Below, piece by piece: positions 36,817 through 39,424 of a stretch of 64,000 nucleotides of DNA. This stretch comes from a virus (lineage: Duplodnaviria; Caudoviricetes). Below the pieces are notes generated by a model, which saw only the letters and a list, made by a program, of their open reading frames with translations, had not been told where the DNA came from and did no database searches. The DNA lies in the IMG/VR virus record IMGVR_UViG_3300031867_000005, positions 96,001 through 160,000 of that record; one strand, written 5' to 3'. The position numbers were made by a program, and so were the translations under genes. Every line of letters begins with the position of its first letter. Position 1 is the first letter of the stretch.

Positions 36817-36958
36817 GGTCTGGAAGCTTAAATGGTATAAGCACTCGCCTTACTTGTCATAGTATAAAGTAATACGTCGCAAGAAGATATGAGGTCATTC
36901 CTCATTGACAAGACCATAAGCGAGAGATAGGCTGGTTCAAATCCACCGCAGACCACCA
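36817..36958 (+). tRNA. Split tRNA-Ile(TAT) with a 64-nt mini-tRNA insert (36853-36916) inside the anticodon
   Basis: CTCGC-CTTA[insert]TAA-GCGAG; encoded CCA; insert CTTGTCA...TGACAAG-ACCA. Confidence 0.8.
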
Positions 36959-37023
36959 TTGAAAAGCCAAATAAATAATTTGACTTTTCTTAAAAATTAT
37001 AATATAATAAAAGAGTGATATGA

Positions 37024-37236
37024 ATGAGAAATCGAGACAAATTAAATCAAATGTCAATTGTGGATTTGCTTTGGAAAATTCATGGTAATGAAACGAACGA
37101 ATATAACTGTATAATAGAATTACTTACTGGGAAGTCTGTAGTCAAAAGATGTAGAAATTTTTATGATAAAGAAAAAGAAGAATTTAAATGTTACGAGTGT
37201 TTATGTAAATGGCTGAATGAAAAGTTTAATGATTGA
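37024..37236 (+). CDS. Small Cys-rich protein
   Basis: MRNRDKL...CYECLCKWLNE. Confidence 0.55.
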   Translation: MRNRDKLNQMSIVDLLWKIHGNETNEYNCIIELLTGKSVVKRCRNFYDKEKEEFKCYECLCKWLNEKFND

Positions 37237-37439
37237 CTTTTTGTATAGATTATGATATAATTTATATAGAAAGTTTGAAAGGAGTAATTAAATGAGAAGA
37301 GTCTTGATTGTTAAAGGAAAGTTCATGGGAATGAGTGGGTATGCAAGATACAATAAGTTTGGTGAGATTGAATTTTTGCCAGACAATAGAGATGAGATTG
37401 TAATTGTTAAGTATGATGAAGTTCTTCAAATTTAATTAT

Positions 37440-37468
37440 TTGACTTTCTTTTAAAATTATGGTATAAT
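37440..37468 (+). promoter_or_regulatory. sigma-A promoter driving the suppressor tRNA precursor
   Basis: TTGACT-17-TATAAT. Confidence 0.85.
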
Positions 37469-37504
37469 TTATATAGAAAGTTTGAAAAGAACTTTCTTAG
37501 ATAA

Positions 37505-37631
37505 TTCGGGATACTTTAAGTAGGCAGAAGGGCGGACTCGCTGTATGAAGGTTAGCTTTAAGATGAGGGCAGTTCTCATATACAGCTCCATAACTCCGCT
37601 AGTGCCAGATCGTGGCTGGCTCCCGAAACCA
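37505..37631 (+). tRNA. Split amber suppressor tRNA(CTA), Gln-like, with a 51-nt mini-tRNA insert (37540-37590)
   Basis: TTCGGGA/TCCCGAA-A-CCA; GCGGA-CTC[insert]TAAC-TCCGC gives loop CTCTAAC; spliced length 76 nt; U1-A72 and anticodon arm resemble tRNA-Gln. Confidence 0.85.
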
Positions 37632-37728
37632 TTAAAAGGAGATAGTAAAGAAGTCATGAGCTTAATGATAAGGCTCACCTGCTTTCTCCTTTTGTCAATT
37701 TTGAGCGAAATCTCGTTAAACTATTTTC

Positions 37729-37800
37729 GGGTTGTTAGCCTATCGGCTAGGCATCACACTTTTAATGTGACTTAGGAAGGTTCAACTCCTTCACAGCCCA
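37729..37800 (+). tRNA. tRNA-Lys(TTT)
   Basis: GGGTTGT/ACAGCCC; TCACA-CTTTTAA-TGTGA. Confidence 0.85.
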
Positions 37801-37809
37801 TCAACATAG

Positions 37810-38095
37810 TCAGTCATATTAAGACTTTACCTTTAAGTTAAAAAAATCCTCATATAGACACTCAGGATGTATGTAGTGAGGTAAAATAAATACTGTGGCT
37901 TTGAAGAAAGTAAAATCCGAATCGATTTATTCTGCCAAATAAATCGTCCTTATGGCAGTAAGGTAAAAAGTGTGTTACGGTTAAAATTTCGCGCTTATAA
38001 AATTAGAATATTCTAAATCGTTTCTCTTTACGTTAAAAGAAATTTAAATTGAGAAAAGCGTCGATTTCTCAATATTTCCGCCTAGAATAGGCGGA
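37810..38095 (+). ncRNA. Candidate structured ncRNA
   Basis: ORF-free stretch in the tRNA operon with several hairpins and an H-type pseudoknot (loop CTGCCA pairing with downstream TGGCAG). Confidence 0.4.
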
Positions 38096-38098
38096 GAA

Positions 38099-38172
38099 GC
38101 GAATGTAGTTTAATGGTAGAATCCTAGCCTTCCAAGCTAGTTACGTGGGTTCAATTCCCATCATTCGCTCCA
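38099..38172 (+). tRNA. tRNA-Gly(TCC)
   Basis: Canonical cloverleaf, CCA encoded. Confidence 0.95.
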
Positions 38173-38262
38173 AGACATTATAAACGAAATAATTCGTAAT
38201 AATGTAAATAATGTAAATGTAAATGAAGAAAATAAGAAAATAAGAAAAGGAGAGGATATAGA

Positions 38263-38838
38263 ATGTTTGGAAATTGGGATATTAATGTTGTTGTAAATAA
38301 GCTTCCTCAAAAGATTGCGACAGCTTTTGCTTCTTTGGGTGAAACAATTTTGGGAGCACAATATACACTAATTGCTTATTTGGGTTCACAGCAGGTAAAT
38401 GGAATCAATCATGCTGTTCTTGCAGAACAAACAATTATCACAGGCAAAGATACTAAGAATATTGTTTTGATTATCTTTAATGAAAAGCCTGAAGGAGTAT
38501 CATTGGTAAATATTGAAAGAATTGTTGAAAGTGGCGAAGGATTTGGGGGCACTACAATTGATGTAAAGACTGAAATTCCTGAAAATGCAAATGCAATTTT
38601 TAATGAATCAATTGGAAATTTTGTCGGTTCTTCAATTAAGCCTTTTGTTTTGCTTGCAACTCAAATGACGAAAGGTATGGATTATATTTTTGCAGCTACT
38701 GTAACTCCAGTTGTGCCGGAAGCAAAACCGACAGTGGCAATTGTAACAGTTAATTCACTTGAGAAGAAAATTTCTTTCATTGACGTAATTCAGTCAAATC
38801 TTAATAAAAAGAGTTTGGGCTATGCCTTTACTTGGTAA
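38263..38838 (+). CDS. Hypothetical protein with an internal duplication
   Basis: Two similar halves (YLGSQQVNGINHAVLA / LLATQMTKGMDYIFAA). Confidence 0.65.
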   Translation: MFGNWDINVVVNKLPQKIATAFASLGETILGAQYTLIAYLGSQQVNGINHAVLAEQTIITGKDTKNIVLIIFNEKPEGVSLVNIERIVESGEGFGGTTIDVKTEIPENANAIFNESIGNFVGSSIKPFVLLATQMTKGMDYIFAATVTPVVPEAKPTVAIVTVNSLEKKISFIDVIQSNLNKKSLGYAFTW

Positions 38839-38864
38839 TAAGGAAGAGTAAATCTTCCTTATAT

Positions 38865-38938
38865 GGCGGTGTAGTGGAAAAGAACCACGACTGGCTCATT
38901 ACCAGTAGGAAAAGGAGCGTTACCTTTCGCCGCAACCA
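38865..38938 (+). tRNA. tRNA-Met(CAT), initiator-like
   Basis: 1:72 mismatch, ACTGG-CTCATTA-CCAGT, CCA encoded. Confidence 0.75.
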
Positions 38939-38944
38939 TTATGA

Positions 38945-39065
38945 AAGATTCGTCAGCAATTCATATTTTCGTTATACATACCATATGATATATAGTTTAA
39001 CGGTAGAACATCTCATTGTAAATGAGAAGACTAAAGGTTCGACTCCTTCAGAAACGAATCTTGAA
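38945..39065 (+). ncRNA. Y-RNA-like element 1 enclosing the D, anticodon (GTA) and T arms of a Tyr-like tRNA
   Basis: AAGATTCGT-CAGCAAT...ACGAATCTT-GAA closing stem replaces the acceptor stem. Confidence 0.65.
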
Positions 39066-39068
39066 TTT

Positions 39069-39143
39069 CGCCCCATCGTCTATGGTTAGTTAGGACATCA
39101 CGCTTTCAATGTGAATAGACCAGAGCATCACTGGTTGGGGTGA
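39069..39143 (+). tRNA. tRNA-Glu(TTC)
   Basis: CGCCCCA/TGGGGTG; TCACG-CTTTCAA-TGTGA; atypical T-loop AGCATCA. Confidence 0.75.
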
Positions 39144-39147
39144 CTTA

Positions 39148-39269
39148 AAGATACATTCAGCAATTTTGTTTTAGAAGAAAAATTTTCCTTGTGTGCTGGT
39201 TAAAGTCTAGCCCGAACTTGTGCCGGTAGTTTAATTGGTAGAACAAGGATTCAAGAAAATGTATCTTGA
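39148..39269 (+). ncRNA. Y-RNA-like element 2 (circularly permuted tRNA mimic)
   Basis: AAGATACATT-CAGCAAT...AATGTATCTT-GA; T-arm GCTGG-TTAAAGT-CTAGC precedes D-arm GTTT-AATTGGTA-GAAC. Confidence 0.7.
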
Positions 39270-39292
39270 TTTAAATGTTAGTTAAAATAAAG

Positions 39293-39424
39293 GCCGCTTT
39301 GATGGAATAGGCAGACATAGGGGACTTACATGGAAAGCAGTCTTAATTAGCGGGGCAGCACCACTATCCATGACCAAAATCCCCTGAGAGAAATCTCGTG
39401 CGAGTTCAAGTCTCGCAAGCGGCA
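39293..39424 (+). tRNA. Split tRNA-Leu(TAA) with a 48-nt mini-tRNA insert (39329-39376)
   Basis: GGGGA-CTTA[insert]AAA-TCCCC; long variable arm; insert CATGGA...TCCATG-ACCA. Confidence 0.85.

What the first reader, a model, noticed from the sequence alone, without database searches (positions are those of the whole stretch)
36817..39424. Family of tRNA-shaped anticodon introns (tRNA-in-tRNA) in three different tRNAs
Seen: Ile CTTA[36853-36916]TAA, suppressor CTC[37540-37590]TAAC and Leu CTTA[39329-39376]AAA. The inserts have different acceptor-stem sequences but one architecture: 6-7-bp acceptor stem, 5-bp T-stem with 7-nt loop, NCCA end, and a shrunken or absent D/anticodon arm (TC-GCAA-GA in the Ile insert). 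Each excision restores a 7-nt loop. Established: acceptor plus T-arm is the minimal RNase P/tRNase Z substrate, and RNase P leaves 3'-OH/5'-P ends. Inference: host tRNA-maturation nucleases act as the splicing endonuclease, an intron type distinct from group I/II and archaeal BHB introns. I recall anecdotal nested tRNAs in megaphages, so novelty needs a literature check.
Basis: partly seen in the sequence, partly recalled or inferred. Interest (0 to 1): 0.93.

Follow-up and report, generated by a model that had tools for sequence, protein, structure and literature searches.

The report
tRNA-shaped introns splitting phage tRNA anticodons
Three tRNA genes of a 179-kb rumen phage, including its only amber-suppressor tRNA, are each split inside the anticodon by a 48-64-base insert shaped like the top half of a tRNA; this intron type is barely described and its removal route is unknown.

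Summary
The inserts at 36853-36916 (tRNA-Ile UAU), 37540-37590 (amber suppressor CUA) and 39329-39376 (tRNA-Leu UAA) each consist of a 6-7-bp acceptor stem, a directly abutting 5-bp/7-nt T arm, and an NCCA tail.

- **Exact excision products.** Removing each insert gives the anticodon loops seen in intron-less counterparts of a related phage.
- **Presence/absence.** A related 47-nt insert in another rumen contig is missing, cleanly, from a 98%-identical contig.
- **Splice sites follow the insert.** Across eight independent inserts, the cut sites sit at base +1 and, in seven of them, right after CCA. Their position in the host anticodon varies between 34/35 and 35/36.
- **Splicing is needed.** 68 of 113 long ORFs carry in-frame TAG, and no other suppressor gene exists.
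- **Possible sealing enzymes.** The phage encodes TAG-free Rnl1-like, Rnl2-like and PNK-HD proteins, but so does its intron-less relative.

The proposed route (RNase P at the 5' cut, a nuclease that cuts after CCA, then ligase sealing) fits these facts but is untested, and the 3' cut is its weak point.

Precedent exists: Lak megaphage "enigmatic introns" (2019) and one sentence in a 2026 jumbo-phage survey. This scan has also flagged the same class on other DNA. No mechanism is in print.

The parts
36817..36852 (+). tRNA-Ile(UAU) exon 1, ending ...CTCGC CTTA
   Evidence: The anticodon arm is identical to that of the intron-less L003 tRNA-Ile(TAT).
36853..36916 (+). 64-nt tRNA-shaped intron: 7-bp acceptor, D arm, vestigial 2-bp anticodon arm, T arm, ACCA tail
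   Evidence: Rfam tRNA 34.8 bits. The minimum-energy fold is the cloverleaf-like shape, z = -3.4. Anatomy.
36917..36958 (+). tRNA-Ile(UAU) exon 2 (TAA GCGAG ... GCAGACC A CCA)
   Evidence: 93.6% identical to the L003/L013 gene across the junction.
37505..37539 (+). Amber-suppressor tRNA(CUA) exon 1, ending ...GCGGA CTC
   Evidence: ARAGORN with introns allowed; sequence.
37540..37590 (+). 51-nt tRNA-shaped intron: 7-bp acceptor, short GGTTAG-containing middle, T arm, TCCA tail
   Evidence: The boundary cannot slide. Only removal of exactly G+1...CCA gives anticodon CUA.
37591..37631 (+). Amber-suppressor tRNA(CUA) exon 2 (TAAC TCCGC ... TCCCGAA A CCA)
   Evidence: It is the only candidate CUA tRNA in the genome.
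39293..39328 (+). tRNA-Leu(UAA) exon 1
   Evidence: Rfam tRNA 38.9 bits spanning the insert; ARAGORN with introns allowed.
39329..39376 (+). 48-nt tRNA-shaped intron: 6-bp acceptor, T arm with loop GGCAGCA, ACCA tail
   Evidence: It shares its T loop and tail with the L080 Leu intron, and four of the stem pairs differ between the two by compensatory changes.
39377..39424 (+). tRNA-Leu(UAA) exon 2
36678..36706 (+). Near-consensus promoter (TTGACT-17-TATAAT with TG) upstream of tRNA-Gln and the split tRNA-Ile
37440..37468 (+). Near-consensus promoter directly upstream of the split suppressor tRNA
31770..32669 (+). Polynucleotide kinase fused to an HD phosphohydrolase domain (candidate RNA end-healing enzyme), TAG-free
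   Evidence: Pfam AAA_33 and HD. The kinase domain matches the C. thermocellum Pnkp kinase structures. No in-frame TAG.
46094..47146 (+). Rnl2-family RNA ligase homologue, TAG-free, KxDG motif at K61
   Evidence: PF09414 81 bits; motif; no in-frame TAG.
47772..48893 (+). T4 Rnl1-family RNA ligase homologue, TAG-free, KxDG motif at K96
   Evidence: PF09511; matches T4 RNA ligase 1 structure 5tt6, E = 4e-7; motif.

Best explanation
The three inserts are true RNA-level introns of a small, probably mobile family of miniature tRNAs. Each is an acceptor stem stacked on a T arm, with or without D-arm remnants, ending in NCCA.

Shown: the pre-tRNA is predicted to fold as a tRNA with a second, small tRNA top half sitting in its anticodon loop.

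Inferred:
1. The splice sites are set by the intron itself.
2. The host's RNase P cuts at the mini-tRNA's base +1. This leaves a 3'-OH on exon 1.
3. A second endonuclease that makes tRNA 3' ends cuts right after CCA. This would be an RNase Z/BN-type activity able to cut after CCA, or an unidentified enzyme. It leaves a 5'-phosphate on exon 2.
4. The two exons stay held together by the outer tRNA's stems. The nick in the anticodon loop is sealed by the phage's own ATP-dependent RNA ligase. Rnl1-like is the natural candidate, with Rnl2-like as the alternative.
5. PNK-HD would only be needed if the ends arrive as 5'-OH and cyclic phosphate.

The suppressor, the AUA reader and the UUA reader all need this step, while the ligase and kinase genes are TAG-free. 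Splicing may therefore also delay TAG read-through until early phage proteins are made. That last point is speculative.
For: 1. **Exact excision products** match intron-less genes of a related phage. The spliced L080 tRNA-Leu is 100% identical over 86 nt to the uninterrupted gene in L040. The flanks of those two contigs are 97-99% identical.

2. **Splice sites are intron-defined.**
   - In eight independent inserts the intron starts at the first paired base of its acceptor stem. These are the window's three plus L080, L025, L125/L179, L140 and L166.
   - Seven of the eight end exactly after NCCA.
   - The position in the host anticodon varies between 34/35 and 35/36. The position is unambiguous for the suppressor, L080, L125, L140, L166 and L025.

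3. **The 7 + 5 = 12-bp acceptor/T stack.** L080 and L025 were found by a pipeline that asked only for a terminal helix and a restored tRNA. Both still show the 7-bp acceptor abutting a 5-bp/7-nt T arm. From memory, this is the geometry read by RNase P, RNase Z and CCA-adding enzyme, and such minihelices with CCA are RNase P substrates (McClain, Guerrier-Takada and Altman 1987; not re-checked here).

4. **Stems covary.**
   - Acceptor positions 1-6 are paired in 48 of 48 cells, with 2-5 pair types per position.
   - Mixing strands between introns gives 50% pairing.
   - The two Leu introns differ by four double compensatory changes while sharing T loop GGCAGCA.

5. **Splicing is required.**
   - 68 of 113 ORFs of at least 150 aa hold in-frame TAG (10.8 per 1000 codons).
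   - TTA is the top Leu codon, and ATA occurs at 23 per 1000.
   - No second CUA tRNA exists.

6. **Ligases are present.** Rnl1-like and Rnl2-like proteins keep the KxDG motif, and PNK-HD is present. All three are TAG-free. All five intron-bearing phage records examined encode an RNA-ligase-family protein.

7. **No ribozyme or other splicing enzyme** was found: no BHB geometry, no archaeal endonuclease and no RtcB in the phage.
Against:
- Cutting after CCA is not the textbook RNase Z site. From memory, CCA inhibits Bacillus-type RNase Z, and the likely host is a Clostridia-class Firmicute. That host call rests only on phage-like contigs binned into MAGs and on sigma-A-type promoters.
- L025's intron ends in AA, one base past the discriminator, so 'after CCA' is not universal.
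- Lak megaphage introns carry about 30 extra bases before the tRNA-like part, so RNase P alone cannot define their 5' site.
- The intron-less relative G001 also has PNK-HD, Rnl1 and Rnl2.
- Ligase genes occur in 10 of 21 unrelated large phage records. The co-occurrence is therefore weak: Fisher about 0.05, or about 0.08 after removing a related pair.
- The presence of PNK-HD fits a cyclic-phosphate/5'-OH route equally well.
- Stem pairing in the five added introns was partly a selection criterion.
Confidence: 0.45

Rival explanations
1. The inserts are introns, but they are removed by a heal-and-seal route. An unidentified metal-independent endonuclease (phage or host) recognises the nested structure and leaves 2',3'-cyclic phosphate and 5'-OH ends. 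PNK-HD heals the ends and Rnl1 seals them, as in T4 tRNA repair or yeast Trl1 splicing.
For: - PNK-HD lies 4 kb upstream of the tRNA array and is TAG-free.
- The 3' site after CCA, and after AA in L025, is not a standard RNase Z site.
- Lak introns have extra 5' sequence.
Against: - No candidate endonuclease was found. PF01974 is absent, and Pfam/PHROGs scans of the neighbouring genes and the larger G000-specific genes gave no nuclease.
- The exact coincidence of the 5' site with tRNA-like base +1 in 8 of 8 inserts would be left unexplained.
- PNK-HD is also present in the intron-less relative.
Confidence: 0.2
2. The mini-tRNA is the real product (a nested gene) and the outer tRNA is mainly its carrier. 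Host RNase P and 3' processing release a CCA-ended mini-tRNA that works as a decoy, primer or regulator. Rejoining of the outer halves is partial or incidental.
For: - T-loop sequence is conserved while the stems covary: GGCAGCA in two Leu introns, and C56-A57 invariant in all.
- The Ile and L166 introns score as tRNAs in Rfam.
- The encoded CCA would give a mature-looking 3' end.
Against: - The outer exons are conserved and restore perfect 7-nt loops in every case.
- The sole suppressor of a TAG-recoded genome is one of the carriers.
- No free-standing copies occur in the genome.
- Near-identical phages do without the insert.
Confidence: 0.12
3. The three genes are inactivated by selfish insertions and are never spliced. 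The phage relies on host tRNAs or some other read-through mechanism.
For: - The outer tRNA-Ile has a G.G and a C.C mismatch, and ARAGORN does not call it even after excision.
- The phage has fewer tRNAs than its relatives.
Against: - 465 in-frame TAG codons occur in 68 long ORFs, and there is no other suppressor.
- Each split gene keeps a clean 7-nt loop after excision.
- The suppressor has its own near-consensus promoter.
- The odd Ile T stem is shared with the intron-less orthologue, so it is not decay.
Confidence: 0.06
4. The inserts are self-splicing or self-cleaving RNAs, or archaeal-type BHB introns.
For: Known bacterial and phage tRNA introns are group I ribozymes located in the anticodon loop (from memory).
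Against: - The inserts are 47-86 nt long, far below a group I core.
- No Rfam ribozyme or intron family matched even at E up to 1-5.
- The two splice sites are separated by a 6-7-bp helix with unequal single strands (3-4 nt on one side, 7-8 nt on the other), not the 3-4-3 bulge-helix-bulge.
- The phage has no PF01974 endonuclease.
Confidence: 0.03

Closest known systems
'Enigmatic' tRNA introns of Lak megaphages (Devoto et al. 2019, PMC6784885, Fig. 4 and Table S6); the same point is made in one sentence of a 2026 jumbo-phage survey (PMC13037316)
   Same: - The inserts sit in the anticodon loops of tRNA genes of large phages that use an alternative genetic code.
- The insert contains a tRNA-like fold.
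- Intron-plus and intron-minus alleles exist among close relatives.
- No ribozyme is found and no mechanism is known.
   Different: - Lak introns are 79-114 nt long. They begin with a hairpin and an A-rich linker before a full cloverleaf, and end at the discriminator (+0/1) without CCA.
- Here the whole intron is the mini-tRNA, from base +1 to CCA. It is often stripped to an acceptor stem plus T arm (47-51 nt).
- Here the intron also interrupts the suppressor tRNA itself.
Group I introns in bacterial and phage tRNA anticodon loops (e.g. cyanobacterial tRNA-Leu UAA; from memory)
   Same: - They interrupt the anticodon loop of bacterial-type tRNA genes, including tRNA-Leu(UAA).
- They are sporadically distributed and mobile.
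   Different: - Group I introns are self-splicing ribozymes of more than 200 nt.
- No such core or Rfam match is present here.
- The inserts here lie inside the anticodon triplet (34/35 or 35/36).
Archaeal/eukaryal protein-spliced tRNA introns (BHB motif, Sen/EndA endonuclease, RtcB or Trl1 ligase)
   Same: The introns are short, have no ribozyme, and must be cut and rejoined by proteins.
   Different: - There is no BHB motif.
- The phage has no EndA-family gene and no RtcB.
- The host is bacterial.
- The splice sites are set by a tRNA-like intron rather than by the exon-intron helix or the mature domain.
T4 tRNA repair (Pnkp + Rnl1 resealing of anticodon loops cut by PrrC; from memory)
   Same: - The phage encodes Rnl1-family and polynucleotide-kinase proteins.
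- The proposed final step is sealing a nick in an anticodon loop.
   Different: - T4 repairs damage to host tRNA; it does not splice.
- The phosphatase here is an HD domain, not T4's HAD-type domain.
- No anticodon nuclease is implicated here.
RNase P/RNase Z model substrates and tRNA-like processing signals (acceptor-T minihelices, mascRNA, mitochondrial tRNA punctuation; from memory)
   Same: A tRNA-like top half embedded in a longer RNA dictates where tRNA-processing nucleases cut.
   Different: In those cases the flanks are separate products or are discarded. Here the flanks must be rejoined to make a working tRNA.

Membership tests
tRNA-shaped introns of large phages (Lak-type 'enigmatic introns') | The insert lies in the anticodon loop of a phage tRNA gene, and its removal restores a 7-nt loop and a sensible anticodon. 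| tested here: met
   The loops match the intron-less genes in L003.
tRNA-shaped introns of large phages (Lak-type 'enigmatic introns') | The insert itself folds like a tRNA. | tested here: met
   The Ile insert scores 34.8 bits on Rfam tRNA. All three have an acceptor stem, a T arm and NCCA. The two short inserts are only top halves.
tRNA-shaped introns of large phages (Lak-type 'enigmatic introns') | Intron-plus and intron-minus alleles occur in close relatives. | tested here: met
   L080 versus L040: the flanks are 97-99% identical and the 47-nt insert is cleanly absent. L003 lacks all three inserts.
tRNA-shaped introns of large phages (Lak-type 'enigmatic introns') | Lak architecture: a 5' hairpin and A-rich linker before the tRNA-like part, with no CCA. 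| tested here: not met
   Table S6 sequences compared. Here there is no 5' extension, and the 3' end is NCCA.
Group I intron | Conserved catalytic core (P3-P8), typically more than 200 nt, matched by Rfam RF00028. | tested here: not met
   The inserts are 48-64 nt long. No Rfam hit at E up to 1-5.
BHB (archaeal-type) tRNA intron | Two 3-nt bulges separated by a 4-bp helix at the splice sites. | tested here: not met
   Reading of the folds: the sites flank a 6-7-bp helix with 3-4 nt on one side and 7-8 nt on the other.
BHB (archaeal-type) tRNA intron | An EndA/Sen-family splicing endonuclease is available. | tested here: not met
   PF01974 is absent from the phage. The host genome is unknown, so the host side could not be tested.
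RNase P substrate (pre-tRNA-like) | A 12-bp coaxial acceptor + T stem, with a T loop and 3' RCCA. | tested here: met
   A 7 + 5 bp stack with no spacer is present in all eight independent inserts, and NCCA in seven. The T loops are non-canonical in the window's three (GTCATTC, GGCAGTT, GGCAGCA), but C56 and A57 are invariant.
RNase P substrate (pre-tRNA-like) | Actual cleavage at +1, leaving 3'-OH and 5'-phosphate. | not testable with these tools
   This needs an enzyme assay or RNA end mapping.
T4-type RNA repair kit (Pnkp + Rnl1) | An Rnl1-family ligase with the motif I lysine. | tested here: met
   PF09511; T4 Rnl1 structure 5tt6, E = 4e-7; KIDG at residue 96.
T4-type RNA repair kit (Pnkp + Rnl1) | A bifunctional 5'-kinase/3'-phosphatase. 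| tested here: inconclusive
   A kinase domain (AAA_33, matching CthPnkp kinase structures) is fused to an HD domain. Phosphoesterase activity of the HD domain is inferred, and a simple P-loop pattern was not matched.

The most novel reading that the evidence does not exclude
Phages of bacteria have a third kind of tRNA splicing, neither ribozyme-based nor BHB-based. A mobile mini-tRNA sits inside the anticodon and recruits the cell's own tRNA end-makers: RNase P at its 5' end and a nuclease that creates the CCA 3' end. A phage RNA ligase then rejoins the exons. In this phage the step controls the amber suppressor, so splicing by early, TAG-free enzymes would act as the switch from the standard code to the TAG-sense code. 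The same ligase chemistry run in reverse, inserting a 5'-P/3'-OH mini-tRNA into a nicked anticodon loop, could be how the element spreads.
Probability: 0.28. Interest if true: 0.92.

Novelty: new variant of a known kind. Interest (0 to 1): 0.72.

Why it matters
- **A new splicing route.** If RNase P and a 3'-end nuclease act as the splicing endonucleases, with a phage Rnl-type ligase as the joiner, this would be a new splicing pathway built entirely from housekeeping tRNA enzymes. It would also give phage RNA ligases a second physiological role besides repair.
- **A control point for recoding.** In stop-codon-recoded phages, the suppressor tRNA could only mature after early phage enzymes appear.
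- **Annotation.** Standard tRNA finders miss these genes. The default run found 8 tRNA genes and none of the three split ones, including the only suppressor. Code-15 phages may therefore be wrongly scored as lacking a suppressor.
- **Tool building.** A 47-51-nt cassette that is cut out precisely by ubiquitous enzymes could be useful for RNA engineering.

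Tried and rejected
- **Sequence patterns for the shared T arm.** The strict pattern gave 5 chance hits. Most were ordinary tRNAs, and four loci (three independent introns) were real nested introns.
- **Exon-with-gap pattern for the Ile gene:** no hits.
- **DUF2828 protein as an anchor for relatives:** nothing found.
- **Covariance model:** not built. MAFFT misaligned the 5' acceptor strands. 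I used a helix-plus-restored-tRNA pipeline on about 2 Mb of fetched DNA instead.
- **Ligase co-occurrence:** 5 of 5 intron-bearing records versus 10 of 21 control records. This is too weak to count as evidence, and the intron-less relative G001 has the same kit.
- **Gene-content comparison of G000 and G001** to find an intron-linked nuclease: 93 of 211 ORFs are unshared, so it was uninformative. Pfam scans of the larger unshared ORFs gave no nuclease.
- **Free-standing copies of the mini-tRNAs:** none found.
- **Thermodynamic z-scores:** they do not support the two short inserts on their own.
- **ARAGORN's own boundary calls** (anticodons CGA 'Ser' and CAA) were rejected. The suppressor has a 4-nt variable loop, so it is not a Ser-type tRNA, and the orthologues show CTA and TAA.

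Full report
**Setting.** The window is bases 96001-160000 of a single 178,685-bp, 31% G+C virus record.
- Reading TAG as sense raises coverage by ORFs of at least 100 aa from 0.2-0.7 to 0.8-1.0 over the first 130 kb.
- 68 of 113 ORFs of at least 150 aa carry in-frame TAG, at 10.8 per 1000 codons.
- Its relatives come from ruminant gut metagenomes, and phage-like contigs are binned with Clostridia MAGs.
- Four near-identical TTGACT-17-TATAAT promoters sit in the tRNA array.
- Together these point weakly to a Firmicute host.

**The observation.** Default ARAGORN finds 8 tRNA genes and misses all three genes in question.
- With introns allowed, ARAGORN finds 37505-37631 (51-nt insert) and 39293-39425 (48-nt insert).
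- Rfam's tRNA model spans the Leu gene across its insert (38.9 bits).
- Rfam's tRNA model also scores the Ile insert itself as a tRNA (34.8 bits).
- Each insert has a 6-7-bp acceptor helix at its very ends, a 5-bp/7-nt T arm abutting the 3' acceptor strand, and an NCCA tail.
- The Ile insert keeps a D arm and a 2-bp stump of an anticodon arm. The other two keep only a short middle piece.
- Whole precursors fold with both the outer tRNA stems and the inner acceptor helix intact.

**They are introns, precisely bounded.**
- Related phage L003/G001 is 78% identical in a marker protein and carries uninterrupted Ile(TAT), suppressor(CTA) and Leu(TAA) genes.
- Their loops (CTTATAA, CTCTAAA, CTTAAAA) are what excision gives here, and the Ile anticodon arm is identical over 28 nt.
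- For the suppressor, only removal of exactly G+1 to CCA gives CUA. ARAGORN's alternative (CGA, 'Ser') is contradicted by the 4-nt variable loop and by the TAG recoding.
- No other CUA tRNA exists in the genome.
- The phage therefore depends on this gene, as it does on readers of TTA (its commonest Leu codon) and ATA.

**Relatives and the boundary rule.** I fetched 80 metagenome loci around the marker protein. I screened them, together with the earlier viral loci and the whole genome, for any segment with a terminal 6-bp helix whose removal restores a tRNA that ARAGORN recognises. Among about 460 tRNAs in the fetched loci, only two more cases appeared.
- **L080:651-697** is a 47-nt insert in tRNA-Leu(UAA), running from +1 to ACCA. 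It is cleanly absent from L040, whose exons are 100% identical and whose flanks are 97-99% identical.
- **L025:1028-1113** is an 86-nt insert in tRNA-Asn(GUU). It has the same acceptor/T layout but an AA tail.

A looser T-arm pattern then pulled three further independent cases from unrelated viral contigs:
- L125/L179 in tRNA-Lys(UUU), 68 nt;
- L140 in tRNA-Leu(UAA), 77 nt;
- L166 in tRNA-Glu(UUC), 84 nt. This last insert scores 42.6 bits as a tRNA.

In all eight independent inserts the intron begins at the first paired base of its acceptor stem, and in seven it ends right after NCCA. The position in the host anticodon is 34/35 in some and 35/36 in others. The ruler is therefore the intron, not the host tRNA.

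Acceptor positions 1-6 are paired in 48 of 48 cells with 2-5 pair types per position, against 50% when strands are mixed between introns. Part of this pairing was a search criterion. The two Leu introns share the unusual T loop GGCAGCA and differ by four double compensatory changes. The Ile intron and the L125 Lys intron share a D arm (13 of 16 bases by my own count of the sequences) but have unrelated acceptor stems. This points to one mobile family sitting in different tRNAs.

**What it is not.**
- No ribozyme or intron family matches in Rfam.
- The inserts are far too short for group I introns.
- The splice sites flank a 6-7-bp helix with unequal single strands, which is not a bulge-helix-bulge.
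- The phage has no EndA-type endonuclease, no RtcB and no CCA-adding enzyme.

**Mechanism (inferred).** The acceptor + T stack with 3' CCA is the classic minimal RNase P substrate (from memory), and RNase P cuts exactly at +1 leaving a 3'-OH. A cut after CCA that leaves a 5'-phosphate would give ends that an ATP-dependent RNA ligase can join directly.
- The phage encodes an Rnl1 homologue (T4 Rnl1 structure match, KIDG motif) and an Rnl2-family homologue (KVDG motif).
- It also encodes a polynucleotide kinase fused to an HD domain.
- All three are free of TAG.

Weak points:
- Cutting after CCA is not the usual RNase Z site. It is reported, from memory, for Thermotoga RNase Z and E. coli RNase BN, and CCA blocks the Bacillus enzyme.
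- L025 ends in AA.
- Lak introns have about 30 extra bases upstream of their tRNA-like part and no CCA.
- The intron-less relative has the same ligase and kinase genes.
- RNA ligase genes occur in about half of unrelated large phages.
- I could not obtain RNA reads.

I put 0.45 on the RNase P / 3'-nuclease / phage-ligase route and 0.2 on a cyclic-phosphate heal-and-seal route with an unknown nuclease. The remainder is spread over the other rivals.

**Novelty.**
- Devoto et al. 2019 reported 'enigmatic introns' in Lak megaphage tRNAs, one of which 'may encode a tRNA'.
- A 2026 jumbo-phage survey states in one sentence that such introns 'could encode another tRNA'.
- Five literature searches found no mechanistic study.
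- This scan has flagged the same class on other DNA. Those notes were used only as leads.

The present case differs from the Lak type in three ways. The intron is minimal and CCA-ended, so the insert is the mini-tRNA and nothing else. One genome holds three of them. One of the three interrupts the suppressor that the recoded genome depends on.

Noticed in passing
window 38945-39062; L003:7338-7465: A tRNA-like body (Rfam tRNA 42.6 bits, but only model positions 8-63) is closed by a 9-bp stem AAGATTCGT/ACGAATCTT with a roughly 35-nt 5' spacer. The closing stem and layout are conserved in the related phage although the 'anticodon' loop differs. It is probably a tRNA-like non-coding RNA, not a decoding tRNA.
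   Followed up: partly
window 39174-39271 and 41857-43479: There is a weak Y RNA-like (YrlA) match of 26.8 bits against a gathering score of 69, with T-arm and D-arm pieces in permuted order. A DUF2828/DUF7788 protein lies 2.6 kb downstream and matches phrog_850 'RNA-binding protein'. This may be a Ro/Y-RNA-like module next to the RNA repair genes.
   Followed up: partly
window 38865-38935, ~39061-39136, 37591-37631: tRNA-Met(CAU), a tRNA-Glu(UUC) seen only by eye, and the outer suppressor all have T loops of the form A-K-C-R-T-N-N (positions 54 and 58 swapped relative to the usual T...A). ARAGORN misses the Met and Glu genes.
   Followed up: no
window 36678, 36980, 37233, 37440: Four near-identical strong promoters (TTGACT-17-TATAAT) lie within 800 bases. 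Two of them drive tiny ORFs (70 and 47 aa, no family match) inserted between the split Ile and suppressor genes.
   Followed up: partly
window 51593-53014: A BrxL-like Lon protease (a BREX defence component, Pfam E = 1e-103) is encoded by the phage and has no homologue in the related phage G001.
   Followed up: no
L037:9809-9942; L027:1262-1397; L024:2850-3044: Related rumen phage contigs carry tRNA genes with other long inserts (40-96 nt) in or near the anticodon loop. These form plain hairpins rather than tRNA shapes and may be a different insert type.
   Followed up: no
G009 (L206:30-1400) and G006: The two phages with the intron-bearing tRNA-Lys lack Rnl1 and Rnl2. They encode a 456-aa protein with a PHA02142 OB-fold and a sub-threshold RNA_ligase domain, possibly an Rnl5-like ligase.
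   Followed up: partly
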